Under the pieces are notes generated by a model. That model saw only the letters and a list, made by a program, of their open reading frames with translations, did no database searches and was not told the DNA's origin. Both the position numbers and the translations under genes were made by a program. Shown here piece by piece: positions 4,305-37,626 of a stretch of 64,000 bases of DNA (positions within the stretch are counted from its first letter, which is position 1; each line of letters opens with the position of its first letter). Source of the stretch: Euryarchaeota archaeon UBA86 (GTDB lineage: Archaea; Thermoplasmatota; Poseidoniia; Poseidoniales; Thalassarchaeaceae); assembly GCA_002503055.1 (NCBI GenBank), contig DAQX01000029.1:2674-66673 (forward strand), read 5' to 3'.

Positions 4305-5708
4305 TTACGGTTCAATTCTACTATTTCTTCCATTAATCGCCGCTAGAGCGATGGAGAATAAAACTAGGATTACCGAAGGAGCAGGAAGCAGACCGGACTC
4401 TACAGACTTAATTCCAACAACGCTATTGTTGACTTCCTCAATCGCCCACATCGAAGCATCGACCACTCGCTTCTGATAGTGTAGAGCGAATTGCCCACTC
4501 TCAGATATTTTCACGCCTTCGAAGTCGAGGATAATCTGCGTACTATTTGTGGCATTGACTTGGAATCCACATCCTACAAGCGAGTAATTAAACTGTGATT
4601 CTATAGTACATGGTTCCTTTTCCAGAGAAATACTAGGGACAAACTCAGTACCATCTTCATCGATGTAGACTAGCGTGGCATTTGCCGTAGAAGCTCTACC
4701 TAGGTTAGAAACTGATAACTCAACTCGAGATCCATCTATGGCCAATGAATCAACAACCAATCTAGCCCTCCAGTACCACACATTCTCGATTAGATAATTC
4801 ATCACATCGAGTTCTTCTCCCAATCTGTCCGAGACTGCCTCTATGGATCCTAGAAGGAATTGCTCATCATCGGTCTCAAAGGTGAAAGTTGGGTACCCCA
4901 TAACACCGTAGCCATAATCACGACTAGTTCCACAATTCGGGTATAGACCTTGGTTAGCGTTACGAATAGGTATGTCTGAAATGTTTGAATTCACTTCATC
5001 TCTAATGTGGTGATACATTTCCCAGTCAGAAGGCTGTTCTGGCCATTTACCCCAAGGGTAGAGCATAATCCAAACTCCAGTATGCATTGTAATGTATAGG
5101 TCGGCATGAGGAACTACCTCGTTCATGTAAATCGAATTTGCAAGAGTCTCTGATTCACTGAATGCCGAACTTCCAGGCTGAGTTGTGGGGCATGTGTTCC
5201 AGTAATGGTCATAATTTCTATTCAGGTCTACCTGATTGACATTCCACCTGGTATCGAAGTCATTTCCATCTGCATTTAGCATGATGAGAATATGTAATTC
5301 AGTGGTCGCCAATACATCGAGTACCTCTTGTTCACCATCGCCCCAGCCTTCGATATAATATTCAGCCACCAGAAACGCAAGCTCCGTTCCTAAATGTTCG
5401 TTCCCATGATGCCCTCCGTCAATGTAAACCACTTCTTTGGCTGATCCATCGGGCTTGGTCTCCTGACTCCAATCTGAAATTTGTAACATCCATAGGTTCC
5501 TTCCCAATTCTGTTTGACCTACGACCAACAAATTCACGATTTCTGGGTAATCATCCGCCCATGCATTGACATCCAATGTCAGTGTTGCATAGGAATGATA
5601 CCAGTGCTCCTGAATTATGTCCGGCTGACCTATCTGTGCCGATGCTATCGGTGCAACAGGCACAGTCAGCATCAGGGATGTGAGGATAATCGCTGCCCAG
5701 CGGCGCAT
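4305..5708 (-). CDS. Secreted/anchored M14 zinc carboxypeptidase
   Basis: HxxE zinc motif (GGHHGNEHLGTE) in an M14-like core. ATG 5708 gives a classic signal peptide (MRRWAAIILTSLMLTVPVAPIASAQ); the ORF track starts at GTG 5747. The C-terminus has a hydrophobic anchor followed by basic residues. Confidence 0.8.
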   Translation of the reverse strand: MRRWAAIILTSLMLTVPVAPIASAQIGQPDIIQEHWYHSYATLTLDVNAWADDYPEIVNLLVVGQTELGRNLWMLQISDWSQETKPDGSAKEVVYIDGGHHGNEHLGTELAFLVAEYYIEGWGDGEQEVLDVLATTELHILIMLNADGNDFDTRWNVNQVDLNRNYDHYWNTCPTTQPGSSAFSESETLANSIYMNEVVPHADLYITMHTGVWIMLYPWGKWPEQPSDWEMYHHIRDEVNSNISDIPIRNANQGLYPNCGTSRDYGYGVMGYPTFTFETDDEQFLLGSIEAVSDRLGEELDVMNYLIENVWYWRARLVVDSLAIDGSRVELSVSNLGRASTANATLVYIDEDGTEFVPSISLEKEPCTIESQFNYSLVGCGFQVNATNSTQIILDFEGVKISESGQFALHYQKRVVDASMWAIEEVNNSVVGIKSVESGLLPAPSVILVLFSIALAAINGRNSRIEP

Positions 5709-5765
5709 AGCGCCGCTGAGGGGGTCTTCATCTACAATCGTTGGCACTAAATGTCAATTTTTCCA

Positions 5766-6683
5766 CTAGTTACGACTAGCAATGTGAGCGACCAGCATCT
5801 TGGTAGCGATGAGTGCTGCGTTGAACTGGGTCAGACGGTCCTCACCGGGGACGATTTCGTTGACATCGACCCCAATGACCTCGGCAGAACTTGCGAATAA
5901 ATCTTCGATAATCTCTACGGCTGCCCAATGACTCAAACCTCCAGGAACTGGAGTACCGGTGTCTGGAACAAGCGAGCCGTCCAGACCGTCGACATCGAAG
6001 GTCAACCAAACAGGCCCCTCTATCTGCGCAATTCTTTCCTTGAGCGCAACCCATCCTGCTTGCCCGTCACACACGCCCATGAAATCCCTAGCATACCAGG
6101 TTTCCACTCGCTCATCATTGTCAGAGAATTCTGCCTCCTCTCTGGATAGCACTCGTGTACCAATTTGCACTACACGACCAACCCCTGCATCGAGAGATCT
6201 TCTGACTGCGGTTCCATGAGAGAATCTTTCTCCTCCGAGTTGATCCCTAAGGTCGGCATGGGCATCGACTTGAATCAGCGTCAGGCGACTCAAATCTCCG
6301 TCCAATGAAGGATGTCCTGCAGCAGCCTGCATCAAGGGGGGAAGAATGCCGTGTTCACCACCTAGGAATAACGGAAATTGCTCACCATCCATCCACTTTA
6401 CTGCATAGTCTCTAATCGAATCCAATTGCTCCATCAGAGTTCCTGCATTTGACGACCATGCTTCTGCAGTATGCATTCTCATTCCGCAAGGTAGTTCCTC
6501 AGGAAGCAAAGTGTCGTACAATTCTACTTGAGAACTAGCAGAGATACAAGCCGCAGGACCATCTTCCGTTCCCTCTCCCCAACTTGTTGTCATCTCGAAT
6601 GGAATTGGCAGAATCACAATGTCCCATGGCCCATCTTCGGACTCTTTGAGGCCGAGGAAAGTAACTCTCTGCTGCTCTTCCAC
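5766..6683 (-). CDS. Agmatinase/arginase-family ureohydrolase
   Basis: Arginase-fold Mn-binding motifs LGGEHG, QVDAHADLRD and TFDVDGLDGS. GTG start. Confidence 0.8.
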   Translation of the reverse strand: MEEQQRVTFLGLKESEDGPWDIVILPIPFEMTTSWGEGTEDGPAACISASSQVELYDTLLPEELPCGMRMHTAEAWSSNAGTLMEQLDSIRDYAVKWMDGEQFPLFLGGEHGILPPLMQAAAGHPSLDGDLSRLTLIQVDAHADLRDQLGGERFSHGTAVRRSLDAGVGRVVQIGTRVLSREEAEFSDNDERVETWYARDFMGVCDGQAGWVALKERIAQIEGPVWLTFDVDGLDGSLVPDTGTPVPGGLSHWAAVEIIEDLFASSAEVIGVDVNEIVPGEDRLTQFNAALIATKMLVAHIASRN

Positions 6684-29584: not shown

Positions 29585-30645
29585 CTTCATCTCTTGCGAC
29601 CTATACGAATCTACGAGGCAATAGTATGGATGAAGGATTACTCGAGCAAACAGCGAATCAGTTAGTAGCTCCCGGAAAGGGGATTCTAGCAGCAGATGAG
29701 AGTAATGGTACGATGTCCAAGAGATTGGCCGTAGTAGGCGTTGAGCCTTCTGCTGAGACAAGACGCTCCTACCGTGCTAACTTACTATCCACCGATGATT
29801 ACCAGTCCGCTGTGTCTGGAGTGATTCTGTTTGATGAGACAATTCGGCAGGACATGGATGACGGTTCATCAATCGTAGATGCCCTAAATGCCATAGGAAT
29901 TCATCCCGGAATTAAAGTCGATACAGGAGCGAAGGAACTGGCTAATCACCCGGGTGAGAAGATTACTGAGGGACTAGACGGACTTAGGGAAAGATGCTCT
30001 GGATACTTCGCAATGGGTGCAAGATTCGCTAAGTGGCGCGCCGTAATTAAAATCGGGGACGGAATGCCAAGTAAGGCCTGTATCTCAACAAATGCTCACG
30101 CCTTAGCGCGATACTCAGCAATTTGTCAAGAGCAGGGATTGGTCCCTATAATCGAACCAGAGGTATTGATGGACGGAGATCACGATGCTCAGAGATGCTA
30201 CGATGTAACTGCGGAGATTCTAGACGCTACATTTGCTGCTTGCACAGAGCAAGGAGTTCACATTCCCGGAGCACTACTCAAGCCGAACATGGTGATGGCG
30301 GGCTCGGGCTGTTCGAATCAAGCAACACGGGAAGAGGTGGCTAAGTTAACTGTGGACTGTTTGACCAATCATGTCCCTCACGACCTTCCTGGTATTGTAT
30401 TCCTCTCAGGTGGACAGTCTGATGAGGACGCAACCGCACATCTCAATCTGATGAATAAGATGAGCGTCAATCATCCTTGGCAATTATCCTACTCCTATGG
30501 AAGAGCCCTGCAAGCCCACGCACTCAAGACCTGGGCTCAAGGAGGCCCCGAGTCAGCGGCCGAGAGCCAAGAGATGTTTGCTCACAGGGCGAAGATGAAC
30601 AGCCTAGCCAGGAGTGGCGATTGGAGTCCGGACCTAGAGGTCTAG
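29581..30645 (+). CDS. Fructose-bisphosphate aldolase, class I
   Basis: GKGILAADES, the Schiff-base Lys context (LLKPNMV) and FLSGGQS. The ATG overlaps the glpX stop (ATGA). An alternative start lies at 29626. Confidence 0.85.
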   Translation: MTSSLATYTNLRGNSMDEGLLEQTANQLVAPGKGILAADESNGTMSKRLAVVGVEPSAETRRSYRANLLSTDDYQSAVSGVILFDETIRQDMDDGSSIVDALNAIGIHPGIKVDTGAKELANHPGEKITEGLDGLRERCSGYFAMGARFAKWRAVIKIGDGMPSKACISTNAHALARYSAICQEQGLVPIIEPEVLMDGDHDAQRCYDVTAEILDATFAACTEQGVHIPGALLKPNMVMAGSGCSNQATREEVAKLTVDCLTNHVPHDLPGIVFLSGGQSDEDATAHLNLMNKMSVNHPWQLSYSYGRALQAHALKTWAQGGPESAAESQEMFAHRAKMNSLARSGDWSPDLEV

Positions 30646-30650
30646 TTTAT

Positions 30651-30902
30651 TCAATTCTCTTCGAGAGCCCCGGGGCGGAGTTGCCAGACACAAATCTCGT
30701 AGCGTCCCGATAGAGCACCACCTCTCTTTGTGGTTGAGACCTTCATGATGTCCTTATCCTTTGAGAGGACATTGCCCAACTGCTGAGGAGTCGTTCCGTG
30801 ACGCATAGTTGAGTTTACATGCTCTAGTATTTCGGTGGTGTTCGCTTCTCCTCTGTCATCGAGGAACTTCTTGATCTTCTGTCTTAGTCTGGTTGTTCTC
30901 AT
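30651..30902 (-). CDS. Small basic wHTH-like protein, paralog A
   Basis: 83 aa and K/R-rich, with AGGAGAG upstream of the ATG. It shares the pattern LRxxIxK(F/Y)LxxRxxNTxEIxxxVNS with the gene immediately upstream. Confidence 0.6.
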   Translation of the reverse strand: MRTTRLRQKIKKFLDDRGEANTTEILEHVNSTMRHGTTPQQLGNVLSKDKDIMKVSTTKRGGALSGRYEICVWQLRPGALEEN

Positions 30903-30903
30903 A

Positions 30904-31257
30904 TCACTCTCTCCTTTCTTTGGGACTGTCTCGCTCGTGGTGCCTTACCCACTCGTCGGTAGCCCATTCCGACAATGGCGGCGAATTCCCAGTCATCCCA
31001 CTCTTGTGAACAGTTCCGATACGAACTAATGTCGCATCAGATTCCATAGCGGCAGTAATTTCTGAGCTGTTCGAAGGGTTGTTCTGAGAATTCACCCAAG
31101 CCGAGATTTCCGCAGTATTTCTTGGCCTTTCAGCTAGATACTTGCGGATAATCGACCTCAATTGATCTTTACTCAATTTCCTTCCTCCGTCTTTATTCGG
31201 ACCCCGGAGAGGCCCGATGCGCTTAGGATGGCGGGCGCTGATATAACCGTTCTGCAC
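30904..31257 (-). CDS. Small basic wHTH-like protein, paralog B
   Basis: The ORF opens at GTG 31257. A TTG at 31176, preceded by GGAGG at 7-nt spacing, would give a ~90-aa product collinear with paralog A. The stop is 1 nt from the paralog A start. Confidence 0.55.
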   Translation of the reverse strand: MQNGYISARHPKRIGPLRGPNKDGGRKLSKDQLRSIIRKYLAERPRNTAEISAWVNSQNNPSNSSEITAAMESDATLVRIGTVHKSGMTGNSPPLSEWATDEWVRHHERDSPKERRE

Positions 31258-31312
31258 GAAATAATGTAATTTTGTTACATAATGTTGCAGAAAAATGACC
31301 TATTTCCATCAT

Positions 31313-31385
31313 TGAACCAAGTGTGGAATTGGAACTAGTTATTTTTCCATTGGAAAGGTGTAACTATATGTAACTAAAATATAGA
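31313..31385. promoter_or_regulatory. Array of TTCCA/TGGAA pentamers including a perfect TTTCCA-T-TGGAAA palindrome, plus a TGTAACT direct repeat
   Basis: TTCCA occurs at 31314 and 31355. TGGAA occurs at 31334, 31340 and 31361. The palindrome spans 31354-31366. TGTAACT occurs at 31369 and 31379. All lie in the AT-rich divergent intergenic spacer. Confidence 0.45.
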
Positions 31386-31431
31386 ATTAAATACAACTCA
31401 CTAAACTCGTTACTCAAGGAGAGCGAAAGTC

Positions 31432-34041
31432 ATGTCCGAGGAACCTCTAGAGCCTCGAAAACGAGGTGAGGAGGTTGATCTAATCAAAATTCGAAGTAAA
31501 CACAGACGAAGGCTACTGAGTAGACTGACAGAAGGAGGGGCGACCGTAAGCGAACTAGCCAACGATGTTGACCTTAGAGTCCCTCATGCTTCTGCCGAGT
31601 TGAAGAGGCTGAGAAACGATGGACTAGTCTCCAGTGACCAGTCAGAAGGAAGTCGTGGTGCTAGTATGCACCTGACGCAGTTGGGTTGGGAGGCAATCCG
31701 TTCCGATGAACTATCTCGAGCTATGGAGGCAAACCCACTCCCTCCAAATTCGGAAATGTGTTGTTTGCTTTCTCGTGATGGGCCCAATCTCTTGCTCGGG
31801 GTTTTGCAACCAATTCAATCACCAATCATTCCAATTCCAACTCGACCTCCGAGAGAGTCAGGAACGCACTCTTCTTCCACAGGAAGAGAAGGGGTCCCTT
31901 GGACCTGGGCCGTGTTCAGAGAGAGAGATCCGCGATGGTTCGATCTTAGTACAATGGAACCTGCAATCAACATCCCCGAGCCCAATAATCCCGAGAACAT
32001 CGACACATACTCTTCCCAGTCTAATATTCTAGGATTAATTCGTGCCCGTTTATTGGACTATGAAAGACCAATAGCAATTGCTCCCGGACAATGGTTTGCT
32101 GAACCATCATTCCTACCTTCGCCTCCTCTACCAGAGAGAAATTACCATCGTGGCGAATGGGCGCTTGGTGCCTGTCACCCGAAGTCTCCTGAGGTTAGAC
32201 CTAGGATGCCCATAGCCGCCGTTTTATCTGAACGATTACCTAGGACAATGATTCTGCGAACTGCTCGATTGAACTCCCTGGTAATTGCAGATCTAGGTGG
32301 CCTTGATATCATAGGTGAAGAATATCCTCTGGGCGCTTTGGCCCATTGGATAGAACGCGCTCATCCTAGATTAGAAGAATCTGAGAGACAGCGCCGATTG
32401 CTCTCTTTAGAAAAAAGAGTCAGTAAAGGAAGAGGGAGGACCGACGACTCTACTTGGAGGAGATTCAGAGCAGATTGGGGCAATGCACAATTTGTGGAGG
32501 AAACAGACTCACTCAGACAACTCGACATCAGAGGCCTTGGAACTGCAGCATCTCAAGCATTGATTAAGTGGGCACTAGAGGACTACAATGCCCTACCTCT
32601 AACGCTTGAAATTGGCCCACAGTCTCCTGATGATTTAGTCTCTGCAATCGCGACACATCCTAATCTCAGACTTATTCTACTGGACTCTGATTGGTCAGCC
32701 TTCTCAAGCTTCGACAAACTGGAGAGCGATCCAATCAGACCACTTCCTTGGCTCAAGCTCACTACAGAATCGGAAAGCACCCTATCCATCAGACTCTTAG
32801 ATCCAATTCAATCTCAACCGACAACAGTATCGGATGACTTACAATCAAGGGCGTTAGATTCACTAGGTCCTGTTGCAGAATTACTGTCCTACTCTGAGGA
32901 TGAGGATTCGGTCATCATGTCTGCAATCTCTCAACATCCCGGCGGGAATGAAGAATGGGCAAATCAAATGGAGGCGAGATATCCACTGGCCGCATGGATT
33001 GCATCTCCTCCGAGGACTCGATGGCCTCGTTGGCAGAGACTCAGAGGAAGGTTGGATTCGGATTGGTTGGTTCTTTTGGGCCTAGATGATCTACCTCTTG
33101 AGAGACTATCTGAGATAGCAGACGAAGCGCCCGACTCAGTGTTGGGAGATTTCTCCGTTAAACTAGAACAGATCCTACGCTCTAACCCTGAAAAGGCACT
33201 GAGAATGCGCCCTGCTTCAGATCCGAAGAATGCTAGCAGAGGAGACTCCTGGGTGGCAGCCCAACTACTGTCTAATGCGCCTTGGCTCTCAGATAATCTT
33301 CACTCCGATTTAATCAGTTGGGCACTTGACGCTTGGTTGTGCCAACCTCCGATTGAATCCATGACAGCTCTTGAGGGAGTATCTTGGCTCTTCTCCTCCG
33401 AGAAACGCCAAGTCGAATTTAGACCTATTATCGAGGGTATTCAGAGTGTTGGGTCCCGGTGCCCGGAGGGGCATGAGTTGAGGATTTGGTCGAGTCTCGC
33501 TAAGGGACTTAATGACAATTCAAAACTCACTACTATGGAATTGAAGAGTATACTGAAATTACCTCCGGGATGGTGGGGGCCAATCTCATCAGCTATCCTT
33601 TCGACAATGCTAGAGAATGAGGAATCCACGAGCTGGATTCTGTCGAATCCAATTCCATGGTGTGCTGCTATCCTCAGACCTGTAGGAGAATCATGTGATG
33701 CCCCTGGATTGAATGACTATCGGCATCCGGGTTGTAACCCAGAGTTGTTATCCATGTTATATCGCCGACTCAGAGGAAGGAGCCAAAATGACGAACTCTC
33801 TGATTCAGCAGACTCAATCATAGATCTTCTCGATGCCTTGGACGCCGCAGCACGTGGCACACCCCCTCAACCCGGTAGGACTCACTCCTATTCTGGATGG
33901 CTAGCCCAACCTATTGAGGAGTGGCCGATTATCGATACTGAGGCGGCTTTGTTGGGGGACCCTCATATCTCTGAGAGAATTATTCTCAGGAAATCAGGAT
34001 ATCGTGTCGAATTCGGCTCTCTGGGCACTATTTCTGGCTAG
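31432..34041 (+). CDS. 869-aa protein: N-terminal ArsR-type wHTH, remainder unknown
   Basis: An AAGGAGAG RBS sits 9 nt upstream of the ATG. Residues ~20-95 (RRRLLSRLTEGGATVSELANDVDLRVPHASAELKRLRNDGLVSS) look like an ArsR/wHTH domain. I saw no Walker or nuclease motif in the rest. The protein is W/R/P-rich, in contrast to its acidic neighbours. Confidence 0.75.
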   Translation: MSEEPLEPRKRGEEVDLIKIRSKHRRRLLSRLTEGGATVSELANDVDLRVPHASAELKRLRNDGLVSSDQSEGSRGASMHLTQLGWEAIRSDELSRAMEANPLPPNSEMCCLLSRDGPNLLLGVLQPIQSPIIPIPTRPPRESGTHSSSTGREGVPWTWAVFRERDPRWFDLSTMEPAINIPEPNNPENIDTYSSQSNILGLIRARLLDYERPIAIAPGQWFAEPSFLPSPPLPERNYHRGEWALGACHPKSPEVRPRMPIAAVLSERLPRTMILRTARLNSLVIADLGGLDIIGEEYPLGALAHWIERAHPRLEESERQRRLLSLEKRVSKGRGRTDDSTWRRFRADWGNAQFVEETDSLRQLDIRGLGTAASQALIKWALEDYNALPLTLEIGPQSPDDLVSAIATHPNLRLILLDSDWSAFSSFDKLESDPIRPLPWLKLTTESESTLSIRLLDPIQSQPTTVSDDLQSRALDSLGPVAELLSYSEDEDSVIMSAISQHPGGNEEWANQMEARYPLAAWIASPPRTRWPRWQRLRGRLDSDWLVLLGLDDLPLERLSEIADEAPDSVLGDFSVKLEQILRSNPEKALRMRPASDPKNASRGDSWVAAQLLSNAPWLSDNLHSDLISWALDAWLCQPPIESMTALEGVSWLFSSEKRQVEFRPIIEGIQSVGSRCPEGHELRIWSSLAKGLNDNSKLTTMELKSILKLPPGWWGPISSAILSTMLENEESTSWILSNPIPWCAAILRPVGESCDAPGLNDYRHPGCNPELLSMLYRRLRGRSQNDELSDSADSIIDLLDALDAAARGTPPQPGRTHSYSGWLAQPIEEWPIIDTEAALLGDPHISERIILRKSGYRVEFGSLGTISG

Positions 34042-34075
34042 AATTTACGATTTCTAACAACCGTGAGGTTCTTGA

Positions 34076-34380
34076 CTACCCCCCATGGCCGTAGAATGCC
34101 CGTGCTGCAACACCGTGGTGACGAAGCCCCACGCCGGAGGAATAGTATGAACCAAGGTACCAAGCACGGGTCGCCACTTGTCGAAGACCAGTGTGACTGT
34201 CTGCAACGGAATGATCACTGGAGCAAAGCAGGTGGCCGGATTGTGAAAGGTCCCCAGATGACCGTAAGGAATGAATCATGGAACTACCCCACAATCCGAC
34301 AAACGTCCCGGGGTGGGTCAGGCGCCCGAGCTTTGCTGTGAAGGCCGCCGTTACGCCCCGGGGCACACAACCACTGGAGG
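34076..34380 (+). ncRNA. Candidate structured RNA, class unresolved
   Basis: By hand count GC is ~59% here, against a visibly lower level in the flanks. The only ORFs are R/S/G-rich and unlike the local proteome. Complementary segments are 34099-106/34163-170 (8 bp), 34237-245/34290-298 (9 bp), 34222-229/34330-337 (8 bp) and 34188-193/34216-221 (6 bp). The G-U pairs at 34098/34171 and 34314/34355 work only on the plus strand. Boundaries are approximate. Confidence 0.4.
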
Positions 34381-35404
34381 TGGAAAGATACACGAGGTCG
34401 GCCTAATCGGCGGCACCTTCGACCGTTTCCATATCGGACATCGCAATTTGTTTATTTCCGGATTGTCAAAATGTCAGGCCATAGAGGTCTGGATTACCGT
34501 TGACTCAATCGCTAGAAAGAAAGACATCAGAATCAATCCCTGGGAACAAAGAGTGGAAGAAATCAAACAGGCTCTAGATGCATATTCCGAACGACTATCG
34601 TTTCATAAATTGACCAATCTACACGGCCCCGCTCCAACACATGAACAGGCAAGCGCGATTATATGCACATCAGAGACCATGTCAGAGTGTGAGGAAATTA
34701 ATACAATGAGAGGCGAATCAGGACTGTCCGAACTCGAGATAATTTGCGTCGAACACACCACATCTTGGGATGACTTTCCAATTTCTAGTTCTAGAATTAG
34801 AAATGGAGAAATTGACCGAGAGGGAAAACGCTGGATACCTGAGTCTTTCGAGACAAGCGTGATGATCATGACTTCTGAGGTTGAAGCCGAATTGAAGGAT
34901 CCATTCGGAGAATTGATTCCAGGACCAGAGGATAATCCCAGTGTGGCCATGTCAGAAGTACTGGACCTGACTAAGAACTCCCACGGCCCACTAATCGCAG
35001 TAGGCGATGTTACCGTTCGGACCTTACAAGACATCGGTAGAACGGCCGATATTGGGCTAATTGATGGTCGTACAAAGAGACAAGTTTGGGTTGGTGCCGA
35101 CGGAATTGATCCTTCTCTTTATGATTTGGAATTTGAGTGTACAAGCCCTGCAGGCCAACTCACTCCTTCTTTGCTCAATTCATGCCAAACAGCAATTACT
35201 TCTTGGACCGAGGAAGACAAATCCTCGTTGATTATTGTGGAAGGTGAGGAAGATCTAGCCCCTCTTCTCCTTCATCCTCTTGCACCCATTGGCTCAGTCA
35301 TTCTGTACGGTCAACCCGGTAAAGGAGTGGTAATCAGAATATGTGGAGAAGACGCTAAGCAACGCTGCCGCAGATTGCTAAGCGGATTTGCTACCAGTGA
35401 GTAA
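34271..35404 (+). CDS. Fusion of archaeal phosphopantetheine adenylyltransferase and DUF359-type (GTP-dependent) dephospho-CoA kinase
   Basis: The N-terminal domain has the cytidylyltransferase motif GGTFDRFHIGH. The C-terminal domain has LKDPFGELI...VGDVTVRTL...GLIDGRTKR, as in the DUF359/TK1697 family. The true start is uncertain (ATG 34271, GTG 34313 or later) because the 5' end overlaps the candidate RNA. Confidence 0.8.
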   Translation: MNHGTTPQSDKRPGVGQAPELCCEGRRYAPGHTTTGGGKIHEVGLIGGTFDRFHIGHRNLFISGLSKCQAIEVWITVDSIARKKDIRINPWEQRVEEIKQALDAYSERLSFHKLTNLHGPAPTHEQASAIICTSETMSECEEINTMRGESGLSELEIICVEHTTSWDDFPISSSRIRNGEIDREGKRWIPESFETSVMIMTSEVEAELKDPFGELIPGPEDNPSVAMSEVLDLTKNSHGPLIAVGDVTVRTLQDIGRTADIGLIDGRTKRQVWVGADGIDPSLYDLEFECTSPAGQLTPSLLNSCQTAITSWTEEDKSSLIIVEGEEDLAPLLLHPLAPIGSVILYGQPGKGVVIRICGEDAKQRCRRLLSGFATSE

Positions 35405-35935
35405 TCAAGCGGCGTCTTCTAGGGTGTGGATACCGACTCCAAAACTCACCAGAATCACCATCACAGCATAGACTCCGGGGTCGACCCATGTGGTGTTCAT
35501 TGAACTCCAAACAATGTAGAACATAACTCCAATGACAATCATCCAACTTGCCATAGTTCTTCTAATTCCATTCTCGGATGATAGAAGGCTAGATGCTACC
35601 GGTCCACTAGACAAACCTCTGAACCACTCCGCCACACCTCCATCGAAGCACTTCTTCATACCCATGGAGCCTAGGACTAACAATGCTACACCGAGCAATG
35701 CGAATACCATGTCATCCATCACAACTCCAGAACCATCGTGTGGAATATTTGAGGCAGCACTATCTCCAGAGATGAATCCAATCCACATCACCTTGAATCC
35801 AGGAGAGTAAGCTCCGATTGTGATGTTGACAACGGTCAGTAGAAGCACCCATGCTCCTAGCACCATTGTCAAAGTAGACATGACTTGACTCGGTCTGCTC
35901 AAGGACTCTCCCCAGTCAGTTCCCTGCATGGTCAT
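35405..35935 (-). CDS. Hypothetical polytopic membrane protein
   Basis: 176 aa with 4-5 hydrophobic helices. I recognise no family. Confidence 0.55.
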   Translation of the reverse strand: MTMQGTDWGESLSRPSQVMSTLTMVLGAWVLLLTVVNITIGAYSPGFKVMWIGFISGDSAASNIPHDGSGVVMDDMVFALLGVALLVLGSMGMKKCFDGGVAEWFRGLSSGPVASSLLSSENGIRRTMASWMIVIGVMFYIVWSSMNTTWVDPGVYAVMVILVSFGVGIHTLEDAA

Positions 35936-35988: not shown

Positions 35989-37227
35989 TCAGAGTTGACT
36001 CTGTAGGTTGTATCTGCCAAGAGCAGCCTCGGCAATAAGTGGCTCAGACTCGCCCATTATCGAAATTGCATCAACACCCTTAGGTATTGCAGAGTTAACT
36101 TGCTTACTTCTTCCGCCCCGCCCTTTACTGACATTTCTAGCCATAATTATTCCCAAGGTGTCAAGCTCATTGAGTAGCGATGAGATTCGCCTAGGTGTAA
36201 GGGCCTCGACTGAGATCTTCATACACGCGTCGCTGTATGTCCTGTAAGTTTCTCCAGTAGAGATGTTTCTCATACCATTGTCCTCATTCAACTTGATTGC
36301 AAGGACAAGCAACTTCTGATGCAGAGGCAGAGTCTTGAGCACTGGAGTGACCTGATCGTACTCCAATTGACTCTGAGCCAACCGTACATGCCTTCTATCA
36401 ACAGTCTTCTGAGACCTCTGCTCGGCCTTCTGAACAGAGATGCGCAACAGGTCAAGAGCCCTGCGAGCGTCACCATGTTCCTGAGCAGCTAAGGCCGAGC
36501 AAAGCTCCAAAACTCCTTCCTCAATCACATCTTCACGCAAGCCAGTATTGACTCGTTCACTGAGGATATCCTGGATCTCAGGAGCCCCATAGGGGTGGAA
36601 TACCAAGTCCTCCTGACTCAATCTTGAGGTCACTCGTGGATCTAATTGCTGGGTGAAGTTGAGGTCATTACTGATACCAATAATGCAACACCTTGAATTC
36701 CTGAGTGAGGTATTGAGACTGGTCAAATTGTACAGTAAACCGTCACCAGCTCTTGAGACCAGATTGTCTATCTCATCTAGCACGATGATGTGAACTCCTC
36801 CTGCTCTATCCATCCTAGAAATCAATTCCTCAAGCACTCTATCAGTGGGCCAACCCGTGAATGGAATTGGAGTATCTCCTCGCCTCCCCAACTTACTGGC
36901 AATAGTCTGTACAACTCTGTACTTTGTGTCTACATTTCGACAGTTGATTTCGTAGGTCTCAACACTCTGTCCCATCTCCTCGCCCTTGTCGAGCAACTGT
37001 CCGAGAACAAATCTAGTAACAACAGTCTTGCCAGAGCCAGGGACTCCGTAGAGCAGCATGTTAGAGGGTATGTGTCCGTTGAGGGCGTCAACTAAGTTGC
37101 GAACCAAAGACTCGACCTCATGGCCCCTATGAGGAAGCCTCGTAGGCTCGAACGCGTGATCGAATGCACGCCTATCAACAAAGAGACAATCTTGCCCGAG
37201 AATTTTCTCGAAAATGTTTCCATCCAT
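35989..37227 (-). CDS. orc1: Orc1/Cdc6 replication initiator
   Basis: AAA+ Walker A (LLYGVPGSGKT), Walker B (IIVLDEID) and sensor regions, with a C-terminal winged-helix segment. 412 aa. Confidence 0.9.
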   Translation of the reverse strand: MDGNIFEKILGQDCLFVDRRAFDHAFEPTRLPHRGHEVESLVRNLVDALNGHIPSNMLLYGVPGSGKTVVTRFVLGQLLDKGEEMGQSVETYEINCRNVDTKYRVVQTIASKLGRRGDTPIPFTGWPTDRVLEELISRMDRAGGVHIIVLDEIDNLVSRAGDGLLYNLTSLNTSLRNSRCCIIGISNDLNFTQQLDPRVTSRLSQEDLVFHPYGAPEIQDILSERVNTGLREDVIEEGVLELCSALAAQEHGDARRALDLLRISVQKAEQRSQKTVDRRHVRLAQSQLEYDQVTPVLKTLPLHQKLLVLAIKLNEDNGMRNISTGETYRTYSDACMKISVEALTPRRISSLLNELDTLGIIMARNVSKGRGGRSKQVNSAIPKGVDAISIMGESEPLIAEAALGRYNLQSQL

Positions 37228-37626
37228 TTTCTTTCACCTTCGGGCCAAATCACGAATACTGTCTCATCTAGGTCCGGGAACAAGATGTGTCAGCCAACGT
37301 GGATGTCAAGCGAGGATGTTGGTGGTAATAAGACTGTCCGACAAGTTGGGAACTTGGTCGGGTTTTTCCTTTCCTATCAGTCATTATATTGGTAAGCAAA
37401 AGCATTGACATATGTAACTCCTATTTTCCTCTCAGTATAGCGTTTTTGTGATTATAATTCCGGTGTAAAAAATGCATCATTCGAGGTACTATATATGCAA
37501 ATATCTTCTTCATGTAAATGTCGCCGAATTAACTCTAAGATGATCTCCAAAAGTCACGAATTTGCAAATACTTAGAGTCCGAATCGATAATCAGAATTTT
37601 TCTATGTATAAACAAAGTTAATTTAA
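37228..37626. other. Candidate replication origin / long AT-rich non-coding region upstream of orc1
   Basis: ~400 bp with no credible ORF, and the 37381-37626 half is very AT-rich. Direct repeats are TGCAAATA (37496, 37563), TCACGAAT (37250, 37554) and TTTTCCT..TCAG (37364, 37424). Confidence 0.45.

What the first reader, a model, noticed from the sequence alone, without database searches (positions are those of the whole stretch)
30651..34041. Uncharacterised three-gene DNA-binding module: two tandem paralogous small basic proteins facing an 869-aa wHTH-headed giant
Two adjacent minus-strand genes (83 aa and ~90-117 aa, 1 nt apart) are clear paralogs. RLRQKIKKFLDDRGEANTTEILEHVNS in one aligns with QLRSIIRKYLAERPRNTAEISAWVNS in the other. 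Both are K/R-rich in an otherwise very acidic proteome, which points to nucleic-acid binding. They are transcribed divergently from an 869-aa protein whose first ~95 residues look like an ArsR-type winged helix. In its remaining ~770 residues I recognised no ATPase, nuclease, methyltransferase or transporter motif, and that part is unusually W/R/P-rich. The module sits between housekeeping genes (class I aldolase and the CoA-synthesis fusion). I saw no integrase or flanking repeats, so it does not look like an obvious mobile insertion. I cannot assign any of the three proteins to a known family. The combination of paralogous small binders, a motif-rich spacer and a giant wHTH protein is the best candidate in this window for an undescribed regulatory, chromatin or replication-associated system.
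Basis: partly seen in the sequence, partly recalled or inferred. Interest (0 to 1): 0.7.

Follow-up and report, generated by a model that had tools for sequence, protein, structure and literature searches.

The report
Winged-helix gene trio at archaeal origin
Three DNA-binding genes that every Marine Group II archaeon keeps together sit on conserved binding sites for the replication initiator Orc1, one of them buried inside a gene, so this locus is probably the still-unmapped chromosome replication origin region of these abundant ocean microbes.

Summary
The three ORFs are real and the two small ones are paralogs. They are not family-less: both belong to Pfam DUF3860 (PF12976), whose crystal structure 2OD5 is a stand-alone winged helix. 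The 869-aa protein has an ArsR-type head. Its roughly 770-aa body matches nothing in Pfam, NCBIfam, PHROGs, PDB or BFVD, although the AlphaFold2 model is confident.

The DUF3860 gene and the big gene are divergent neighbours in about 85 Poseidoniales loci, down to 24% identity of the big protein. The spacer length is almost fixed at 255-276 nt, and spacer motifs are better conserved than the adjacent coding N-termini.

The main new result is a canonical origin recognition box (ORB), CTTCCACAGGAAGAGAAGGGGT, inside the big gene at 31874-31895. Three synonymous codon positions there are frozen in all 67 distinct sequences, whereas comparable sites elsewhere vary freely. A mini-ORB dyad lies in the spacer, and an Orc1-1-type initiator gene lies 4 kb away.

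My best reading is an Orc1-bound origin region flanked by lineage-specific winged-helix genes. The small protein S1 is under extreme purifying selection and also occurs in replication modules of viral contigs. Origin activity itself is inferred, not shown. The function of all three proteins remains unknown.

The parts
30651..30902 (-). S1: an 83-aa basic (pI 9.8) stand-alone winged-helix protein of Pfam DUF3860
   Evidence: PF12976 E=1e-38. PDB 2OD5 E=2e-30. The AlphaFold2 model has pLDDT 87 with topology H1-b1-H2-H3-b2-b3, and its top Foldseek hit is 2OD5 at TM 0.88. The protein is 89-99% identical across MGIIb loci, while third-codon-position identity is only about 0.3-0.4 in the more diverged loci.
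30904..31176 (-). S2: a 90-aa DUF3860 paralog (TTG start) that evolves fast and forms an operon with S1
   Evidence: PF12976 E=6e-24. It is 43-65% identical in loci where S1 is 92-98%. Its start is set by the GGAGGA ribosome-binding site and by homologues of 88-91 aa. It keeps the ancestral C-terminal motif EWAT..WV..H that S1 has lost.
31177..31431 (.). 255-nt shared control region. Its length is nearly fixed (255-260 nt in MGIIb, 272-276 nt in MGIIa) and its motifs are conserved order-wide.
   Evidence: The core at 31260-31410 is AT-rich, with 27-33% GC against about 49% in the genome.
31205..31262 (-). Conserved block holding the presumed TATA box of the S2-S1 operon (GTTATATC, 31240-31247) and the conserved TTCTGCAC. 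It lies inside the spurious GTG extension of the S2 ORF.
   Evidence: It is conserved as DNA in all loci regardless of reading frame. The promoter role is inferred.
31274..31289 (-). TGTAAC-N4-TGCAAC tandem repeat (10-bp period), pointing toward the S2-S1 operon
   Evidence: The pattern TGTAAY-N4-TGTAAY gives 3 hits in 64 kb, 2 of them here. None of 100 shuffles reached 3.
31345..31356 (.). Mini-ORB dyad TTCCATTGGAAA, the core of the archaeal origin recognition box
   Evidence: It is the only exact match in the window. It is present at the same place in nearly all loci of both clades, which makes it conserved rather than a chance match. It reaches 14-17 bits on an independent ORB matrix in several MGIIa loci.
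31359..31374 (+). TGTAAC-N4-TGTAAC tandem repeat directly after the dyad, pointing toward the big gene and followed by a TATA-like AATTAAATACA (31385-31395)
   Evidence: The composite consensus TTCCAnTGGAAAT.T(G/A)TAACTAAA..TAAC holds in both clades.
31432..34041 (+). BIG: an 869-aa Poseidoniales-specific protein with an ArsR-type winged-helix head (residues ~20-100) and a body of unknown fold family
   Evidence: The family has 160 representatives among 1.84 billion proteins. Those that carry a taxon name are Poseidoniales, Thalassarchaeaceae or unclassified Euryarchaeota/archaeon, and all are called hypothetical or wHTH-domain protein.
31874..31895 (+). Canonical ORB, CTTCCACAGGAAGAGAAGGGGT, embedded in BIG codons 148-155, in a loop that AlphaFold2 models with low confidence
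   Evidence: It is the only hit of at least 14 bits in the window with a matrix built from 9 published ORBs, and the homologous site is the top hit in every locus checked. Codons TCC, GGA and GGG are invariant in 34 + 33 distinct sequences. Residues 144-153 have pLDDT below 50.
35989..37227 (-). Orc1/Cdc6 initiator gene of the Orc1-1 class, 4.1 kb from the ORB and always linked to it
   Evidence: Pfam Cdc6 domains. The best PDB matches are A. pernix ORC1 (2V1U, 2e-88) and S. solfataricus Orc1-1 (2QBY_A, 1.5e-84), against 3e-38 for Orc1-3. Linkage is shown.

Best explanation
The locus is a core feature of Poseidoniales (Marine Group II) chromosomes. One DUF3860 winged-helix gene, duplicated into S2-S1 in the Thalassarchaeaceae-like lineage of this window, is transcribed divergently from a lineage-specific 869-aa protein with an ArsR-type winged-helix head. 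The two units share a length-constrained, AT-rich control region of about 255 nt.

That region carries the two promoters. Upstream of each promoter lies a tandem TGTAAC repeat with 10-bp spacing, and the two repeats mirror each other. The region also carries an Orc1-type mini-ORB dyad. A complete ORB lies 445 nt into the big gene and is held constant at the DNA level.

The neighbouring Orc1-1-type initiator most likely binds these two sites. That would make this the Orc1-bound origin region, either oriC itself or its ORB cluster. I infer that the three winged-helix proteins are origin-linked DNA-binding factors. S1 is a small, basic protein under extreme constraint and is a candidate chromatin or origin accessory protein. 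S1/S2 and/or the head of BIG probably bind the TGTAAC repeats and control both promoters.

Shown here: gene reality, family and fold of S1 and S2, linkage across the order, DNA-level constraint on the ORB, and the match to the ORB consensus. Inferred: Orc1 binding, origin firing, which protein binds which motif, and any function of the BIG body.
For: ORB. The site matches the published archaeal consensus CTTCCAGTGGAAACGAAAGGGGT and the Methanomassiliicoccales ORBs (PMC4153887). It is the sole hit of at least 14 bits in 64 kb (18.9 bits). Homologous sites score up to 29.7 bits in the other loci.

DNA-level selection. About 424 conserved four-fold-degenerate codon columns were examined in 8 genes. 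Mean third-position entropy per gene is about 1.6-1.8 bits (0.85 for the single column in S2). Only S149 (TCC), G151 (GGA) and G154 (GGG) have zero entropy, and all three lie in the ORB. The same holds in a second clade, with 33 of 33 distinct sequences.

Position. The ORB sits at a fixed offset in both clades: +391 in 51 of 51 MGIIa loci, and about +445 in MGIIb. The mini-ORB sits at -97 and -86 respectively.

Initiator. The neighbouring gene is of the Orc1-1 class and is always 4-5.6 kb away.

Precedent. In Thermococcales a conserved ORB cluster inside the dp1 coding sequence, downstream of cdc6, is bound by Cdc6/Orc1 in vivo (PMC1904270).

Linkage. The DUF3860 gene is divergent from BIG in 53 of 53 MGIIa loci and in all MGIIb loci that hold upstream DNA, even though the genes upstream of DUF3860 differ between lineages.

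S1 constraint. S1 is 89-99% identical where BIG is 44-90% and Orc1 is 78-97%. Between clades S1 is 68-73% identical against 53-55% for Orc1. Third-codon-position identity is about 0.3-0.4 in the more diverged loci.

Other hints of a DNA role. DUF3860+SAP fusions recur. S1-like genes lie beside a clamp loader, an SNF2 helicase and a DNA methyltransferase in IMG/VR viral contigs.
Against: Only one full ORB and one dyad were found, about 500 nt apart and in direct orientation. The classical arrangement is two inverted ORBs closely flanking an unwinding element. GC and AT skew in the window are fully explained by gene orientation, with a replication-side term of -0.002 +/- 0.008. The intergenic region directly upstream of orc1, where origins usually lie, has no ORB. 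Three genes separate the ORB from orc1. A single mini-ORB binds Cdc6 weakly in Pyrococcus. The AT-rich spacer would be expected for any divergent promoter pair. The viral DUF3860 loci carry neither TGTAAC repeats nor ORBs, so nothing ties S1 to those motifs. No expression, binding or replication data exist for these uncultured organisms.
Confidence: 0.5

Rival explanations
1. This is an ordinary autoregulated divergent pair of transcription factors. The spacer is conserved only because two promoters and their operators overlap. The ORB and the dyad are auxiliary Orc1 sites, for example so that Orc1 acts as a transcriptional regulator or roadblock on the big gene. The real origin lies elsewhere.
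For: The mirror-image TGTAAC repeats sit just upstream of each presumed TATA box, as operators or activator sites do. There is no skew signal. Only one full ORB is present. Isolated ORB-like sites away from origins are reported in other archaea, for example Ca. M. intestinalis ORB3 and ORB4.
Against: A local regulator would not normally be more conserved than Orc1 itself. The ORB is frozen across the whole order at a fixed offset. It is always linked to the Orc1-1-type gene. [quoted passage not shown]
Confidence: 0.3
2. S1 (DUF3860) is mainly a genome-wide chromatin or nucleoid-associated protein of Marine Group II. Its position beside the ORB is only conserved synteny, and BIG is an unrelated regulator or enzyme.
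For: S1 is small and basic (pI 9.8), is restricted to one lineage and is under extreme purifying selection. Diaforarchaea lost histones and Alba, and MG-II is reported to have only an acquired MC1 (PMC7613761). Fusions to the SAP DNA-binding domain recur. Viruses of the same hosts carry copies.
Against: There are no abundance data. The divergent pairing with BIG and the fixed spacer length persist even where the genes upstream of DUF3860 differ, which suggests a functional tie. In this lineage S1 is the second gene of an operon, whereas known nucleoid proteins are mostly encoded as single genes.
Confidence: 0.15
3. The module is a mobile element, a defence island or a viral remnant.
For: DUF3860 homologues occur on viral contigs.
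Against: The gene order FBPase-aldolase-S1-S2-BIG-PPAT-membrane-Orc1 is collinear in 28 species genomes and in the metagenomic loci. Composition is not anomalous. No integrase or flanking repeats were seen. BIG is absent from the viral loci.
Confidence: 0.02

Closest known systems
Thermococcales oriC / cdc6 / dp1 ORB clusters (Matsunaga et al. 2007, PMC1904270)
   Same: A conserved ORB lies inside a protein-coding gene on the 3' side of the orc1/cdc6 gene, within a few kb of it. It is accompanied by mini-ORB dyads and is conserved across an order.
   Different: In Pyrococcus a second ORB cluster with inverted ORBs sits directly upstream of cdc6. No such cluster is seen here. The host gene here is an unknown winged-helix protein, not DNA polymerase D. 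Binding is shown by ChIP there and is only inferred here.
UBP, the ucm-binding protein of Sulfolobales (Dhanaraju et al. 2025, PMC12141716)
   Same: UBP is a small (111 aa), basic, lineage-restricted DNA-binding protein. It acts both as an origin accessory factor and as a nucleoid protein. This is the kind of role proposed here for S1.
   Different: UBP is a beta-rich saddle that binds through beta-hairpins, whereas S1 is a winged helix. No sequence or fold relation appeared in the PDB searches. The UBP gene is not described as origin-adjacent.
PDB 2OD5 / Pfam PF12976 (DUF3860)
   Same: S1 and S2 are members. 2OD5 is 68% identical to S1 and is the single-copy Poseidoniaceae type.
   Different: The family has a structure, deposited as 'putative nucleic acid binding protein', but no function, no genomic context and no literature. 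The duplication into S1 and S2, the SAP fusions, the viral copies and the ORB linkage are described here.
ArsR/SmtB metalloregulators
   Same: The head of BIG matches HTH_5 above the Pfam cut-off and superposes on SmtB, CzrA and MarR structures.
   Different: ArsR proteins are dimers of about 100-120 aa. BIG has a further 770 residues of unknown fold. NCBIfam ArsR models score below their cut-offs (35 bits against 55).
WhiP, the Cdt1-like winged-helix initiator at Sulfolobus oriC3
   Same: Winged-helix protein(s) are encoded next to the origin they serve. The tandem winged-helix content parallels the S2+S1 pair.
   Different: No sequence similarity was detected, since no Cdt1 or WhiP family appears in the Pfam hits. 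The resemblance is by analogy only.

Membership tests
Pfam PF12976 (DUF3860) | Profile match above the gathering score (27 bits) | tested here: met
   S1 scores 131.7 bits and S2 84.3 bits.
Pfam PF12976 (DUF3860) | Fold of the family's solved structure, 2OD5 | tested here: met
   S1 model against 2OD5: TM 0.88, rmsd 2.2 A, E=1e-10. S2 was matched by sequence only (E=7e-12).
ArsR/SmtB family | HTH_5 profile match above the gathering score | tested here: met
   27.9 bits against 22, residues 23-68. 28 of 51 family members also match.
ArsR/SmtB family | Small (~100-120 aa) single-domain regulator that passes the curated NCBIfam model | tested here: not met
   BIG is 869 aa. NF033788 scores 35.2 bits against a cut-off of 55.
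Orc1-dependent archaeal replication origin (oriC1 type) | ORB matching the archaeal consensus (dyad plus G-string) | tested here: met
   Site 31874-31895 scores 18.9 bits. Homologous sites score 15.6-29.7 bits.
Orc1-dependent archaeal replication origin (oriC1 type) | Two or more ORBs in inverted orientation flanking an AT-rich unwinding element | tested here: inconclusive
   One full ORB plus one palindromic dyad about 500 nt apart. A 150-nt stretch of 27-33% GC lies beside the dyad. An inverted ORB-like site is seen only in L033.
Orc1-dependent archaeal replication origin (oriC1 type) | Linkage to an Orc1-1-class initiator gene | tested here: met
   The gene is 4.1 kb away in the window and 5.6 kb away in MGIIa, in every locus with enough DNA. 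Its class is given by the PDB matches.
Orc1-dependent archaeal replication origin (oriC1 type) | Nucleotide skew inflection at the site | tested here: inconclusive
   No replication-side term is seen within the 64-kb window. Whole genomes were not available.
Orc1-dependent archaeal replication origin (oriC1 type) | Orc1 binding and replication initiation in vivo | not testable with these tools
   The lineage is uncultured. This needs EMSA, or read-depth marker-frequency analysis on metagenomes.
Archaeal nucleoid-associated proteins (criteria of Hocher et al. 2022) | Small, predicted DNA-binding, highly abundant, usually encoded as a single gene | tested here: inconclusive
   S1 is small, basic and a winged helix. 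It is a single gene in MGIIa. Abundance is not testable here.
UBP (ucm-binding protein) | Beta-saddle fold with DNA-binding beta-hairpins | tested here: not met
   S1 has the winged-helix topology alpha-beta-alpha-alpha-beta-beta. The top 50 Foldseek PDB hits are 2OD5 followed by other winged-helix proteins.

The most novel reading that the evidence does not exclude
DUF3860 proteins (S1/S2) and the 869-aa winged-helix protein are Marine-Group-II-specific accessory factors of replication initiation, working at an origin whose Orc1 box is written into the coding sequence of one of them. Orc1 occupancy would then couple origin licensing to expression of the factor. S1 would double as the lineage's missing chromatin protein and would be borrowed by its viruses for their own replication.
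Probability: 0.2. Interest if true: 0.8.

Novelty: new variant of a known kind. Interest (0 to 1): 0.62.

Why it matters
[quoted passage not shown] In the literature I could search, nothing describes their replication origin. Their clade has lost histones and Alba.

A conserved Orc1 box at a fixed genomic landmark gives a concrete origin candidate. That candidate can be tested with existing metagenomes by read-depth peak-to-trough analysis, which is also the basis of in-situ growth-rate estimates.

The work also gives a genomic context and a testable role to a structural-genomics orphan (2OD5/DUF3860), and to an 870-aa core protein with no recognisable fold relatives. Finally, it is a clean case of a protein-coding sequence constrained by an overlapping DNA-binding site.

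Tried and rejected
1. Known RNA in the spacer. Rfam at a permissive threshold gave nothing relevant for 30500-31700.

2. Structured 5' leader for the S2-S1 operon. Hairpins seen by eye are not in register between lineages, and RNAalifold predicted no consensus pairs.

3. Origin directly upstream of orc1. That 400-nt intergenic region has some conserved blocks but no ORB or dyad.

4. Skew evidence for an origin. There is none once gene orientation is modelled.

5. Fold relatives for the BIG body. Foldseek against PDB and BFVD returned only winged-helix matches to the head. The one long hit, 9x1l_A from the HerA-NurA complex, has TM 0.23-0.31 and rmsd 12 A, and I discount it. Profile searches against PDB and Pfam for all 51 family members found only HTH families.

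6. A BIG-like partner next to the viral DUF3860 genes. hhalign of the BIG profile against the two large viral neighbours gave probability below 1%.

7. TGTAAC repeats or ORBs near the viral DUF3860 genes. Neither was found.

8. The 117-aa reading of S2. It was rejected in favour of 90 aa.

9. A mobile-element reading. It was rejected on collinearity.


Full report
**Observation**

The three ORFs exist as described: S1 at 30651-30902(-), 83 aa; S2 at 30904-31257(-), 117 aa by the mechanical ORF call; and BIG at 31432-34041(+), 869 aa. S1 and S2 align at 25% identity (E=0.001). Both match Pfam PF12976 (DUF3860) far above its cut-off, with E of 1e-38 and 6e-24. BIG matches only HTH_5/ArsR, at residues 23-68.

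S2 most likely starts at the TTG at 31176, giving 90 aa. A GGAGGA ribosome-binding site precedes that codon, and homologues are 88-91 aa. The 27 upstream 'codons' are conserved as DNA but fall out of frame in other species. With that start the spacer is 255 nt and S2 is neutral (pI 6.8). S1 is basic (pI 9.8).

**What the proteins are**

S1 is 68% identical to PDB 2OD5. This is a structural-genomics structure from an ocean metagenome, deposited as a 'putative nucleic acid binding protein'. An AlphaFold2 model of S1 (pLDDT 87) has the winged-helix topology H1-b1-H2-H3-b2-b3. After 2OD5, its structural neighbours are PadR, TFIIE, forkhead, RTP and the Orc1 winged-helix domain.

The DUF3860 family has about 700 clusters. 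All that carry a taxon name come from Poseidoniales or unclassified Thermoplasmatota/Euryarchaeota. No paper in the library mentions the family.

BIG folds confidently (pLDDT 85, pTM 0.79). The model shows a winged-helix head, a beta-rich region, an alpha/beta region, a disordered linker at 460-488 and a large helical C-terminal half. Only the head finds relatives in PDB, BFVD, Pfam, NCBIfam or PHROGs, whether searched by sequence, by profile or by fold.

The BIG family has 160 representatives among 1.84 billion proteins. Members are full length down to 24% identity and are annotated as hypothetical or 'winged helix-turn-helix domain-containing protein [Candidatus Poseidoniales archaeon]'.

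**Linkage**

In 28 species-representative genomes the order FBPase-aldolase-S1-S2-BIG-PPAT/DUF359-membrane protein-Orc1 is collinear. That alone could be plain synteny. In distant lineages, however, the genes upstream of DUF3860 differ: a DeoC-type aldolase, a TerB-like gene, or others. The DUF3860 gene still stays divergent from BIG.

In 55 further metagenomic loci of the Poseidoniaceae-like clade, DUF3860 is divergent from BIG in 53 of the 53 loci that hold enough upstream DNA. The gap there is 272-276 nt. In the clade of this window the gap is 255-260 nt.

That distant clade has one DUF3860 gene of about 106 aa, the 2OD5 type. One lineage has a DUF3860+SAP fusion. The clade of this window has the S2-S1 duplication. 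S1 kept the central recognition region, and S2 kept the ancestral C-terminal motif EWAT..WV.

**Constraint on S1**

S1 is 89-99% identical across loci where BIG is 44-90%, aldolase is 71-97% and Orc1 is 78-97%. Between the two clades S1 is 68-73% identical, against 53-55% for Orc1 and 24-28% for BIG. Third-codon-position identity in S1 is only about 0.3-0.4 in the more diverged loci, so the constraint acts on the protein. S2 evolves quickly (43-65% identity in those loci).

**The spacer**

Aligned across species, the spacer motifs are better conserved than the N-terminal coding sequence on either side. The conserved elements are:
- a block around GCTGATATAAC..TTCTGCA (31238-31257), presumably the TATA region of the S2-S1 operon;
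- GTTACA-N4-GTTGCA at 31274-31289;
- the palindrome TTCCATTGGAAA at 31345-31356;
- directly after it, TGTAAC-N4-TGTAAC at 31359-31374;
- a TATA-like AATTAAATACA at 31385-31395.

The two TGTAAC pairs mirror each other, and each sits upstream of one promoter. The pattern is otherwise nearly absent from the 64-kb window: 3 hits in all, and no shuffle out of 100 reached 3. The composite 'dyad plus TAAC repeats' is retained in the distant clade.

**The Orc1 boxes**

The palindrome is the core dyad of the archaeal origin recognition box (ORB). When I scanned all loci for it, a second hit appeared about 500 nt downstream in many loci, inside BIG and followed by a G-string.

In the window this site is CTTCCACAGGAAGAGAAGGGGT (31874-31895). 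The published archaeal consensus is CTTCCAGTGGAAACGAAAGGGGT, and a typical Methanomassiliicoccales ORB is GTTCCAGTGGAAATGAAGGGGT (PMC4153887).

I built a weight matrix from nine published Methanomassiliicoccales ORBs. It gives exactly one hit of at least 14 bits in the 64-kb window, and that hit is this site. The homologous site is the top hit in every locus examined, at 15.6-29.7 bits. It lies at exactly +391 of BIG in 51 of 51 loci of the second clade.

The site encodes S-x-G-x-x-G, in a loop that AlphaFold2 models with pLDDT below 50. About 424 conserved four-fold-degenerate codon columns were examined in eight genes of the region. Mean third-position entropy per gene is about 1.6-1.8 bits. 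Only three columns have zero entropy: TCC, GGA and GGG, all within the ORB. The second clade shows the same pattern: TCC 33 of 33, GGA 33 of 33, GGG 33 of 33 and a further GGG 32 of 33. This is selection on the DNA sequence, not only on the peptide.

The neighbouring initiator gene belongs to the Orc1-1 class. Its matches to the ORB-bound A. pernix ORC1 and to S. solfataricus Orc1-1 are 2e-88 and 1.5e-84, against 3e-38 for Orc1-3.

There is a direct precedent. In Thermococcales, a conserved ORB/mini-ORB cluster lies inside the dp1 coding sequence downstream of cdc6 and is bound by Cdc6/Orc1 in vivo (PMC1904270).

**Limits of the origin reading**

- I found one full ORB and one dyad, in direct orientation and about 500 nt apart. 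The classical arrangement is an inverted pair around an unwinding element.
- The region directly upstream of orc1 has no ORB.
- Skew in the window is fully explained by gene orientation.
- A lone mini-ORB binds Cdc6 weakly in Pyrococcus.
- Whole genomes could not be scanned here.

So 'Orc1-bound locus next to orc1' is well supported by sequence. 'This is where replication starts' remains an inference, which I put at about even odds.

**Viruses**

Thirteen IMG/VR viral contigs carry S1-like DUF3860 genes at 42-75% identity. In the three contigs whose flanks I examined, the gene sits among an SNF2 helicase, a DNA methyltransferase and a clamp loader. This fits the replication module described for group A magroviruses. 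These viral loci have no BIG, no ORB and no TGTAAC repeats. The context hints at a DNA-replication or chromatin role for DUF3860, but it does not tie S1 to the spacer motifs.

**Chromatin context**

Diaforarchaea, which include MG-II, lost histones and Alba, and MG-II is reported to carry an acquired MC1 (PMC7613761). A small, basic, extremely constrained, lineage-specific winged-helix protein is therefore a reasonable candidate nucleoid protein. Its abundance is unknown.

The Sulfolobus protein UBP shows that a small basic protein can be both a nucleoid protein and an essential origin factor. UBP has a different fold, so the comparison is functional only.

**Verdict**

Its claim that the proteins fit no family is wrong for the two small proteins, which belong to DUF3860/2OD5, and right for the body of BIG.

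The module is a core, order-wide feature of Poseidoniales. It is physically interleaved with conserved Orc1 recognition elements, one of which is embedded in the big gene and frozen at synonymous sites. I file it as a new variant of a known kind: an Orc1/ORB-type archaeal origin region, with lineage-specific winged-helix genes wrapped around it. The biochemical roles of S1, S2 and BIG remain open.

Noticed in passing
window 34075-34368 (+), between the BIG stop codon and the real start of the PPAT/DUF359 gene: About 300 nt here are conserved far better than the flanking genes. The stretch ends in ...CCCCGGGGCACACA. It matches the multi-hairpin archaeal H/ACA guide RNA HgcG/Pab40 (RF00064, 26.6 bits, E=1.6e-5, below the gathering score of 77) and Pab160. 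It is probably an unannotated H/ACA pseudouridylation guide RNA. The first ~35 codons of the 34271-35404 ORF, and the 69-aa ORFs that gene callers place here in other contigs, are then spurious.
   Followed up: partly
L037-L049 (IMG/VR viral contigs), e.g. L038:5998-6465: S1-like DUF3860 genes (42-75% identity) occur on viral contigs. In the three contigs examined they sit among an SNF2 helicase, a DNA methyltransferase and a clamp loader. Some are extended to 155 aa. The magrovirus papers I read do not mention them.
   Followed up: partly
L033:4711-5229 (-) and proteins P0476-P0510: Fusions of DUF3860 with a C-terminal SAP DNA-binding domain (about 172-179 aa) recur in one Poseidoniales lineage. 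They sit at the same position, divergent from the BIG homologue.
   Followed up: partly
window 31205-31262: A GC-rich conserved block (CCCGATGCGC.TAGGATGGCGGGCGCTGATATAAC) lies between the presumed TATA box and the start of the S2-S1 operon. It is nearly invariant within sub-clades. Neither a promoter alone nor any RNA structure I could detect explains this.
   Followed up: partly
window 37228-37626 (intergenic region upstream of orc1): Several blocks are conserved across species, for example GGTAATAAGACTGTCCGA near 37325-37345 and CGTGGATGTCA..AGCGAGG. Their function is unknown, and none resembles an ORB.
   Followed up: no
L028 (MAG SP3092), 5427-5920: This lineage has an S1-type gene 98% identical to the window's S1 but no detectable S2, so the S2 paralog is dispensable or was lost there.
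   Followed up: no
window 35405-35935 (-): A 176-aa predicted membrane protein with no family match is always wedged between PPAT and orc1 in this clade. A glycosyltransferase is inserted beside it in the distant clade.
   Followed up: no
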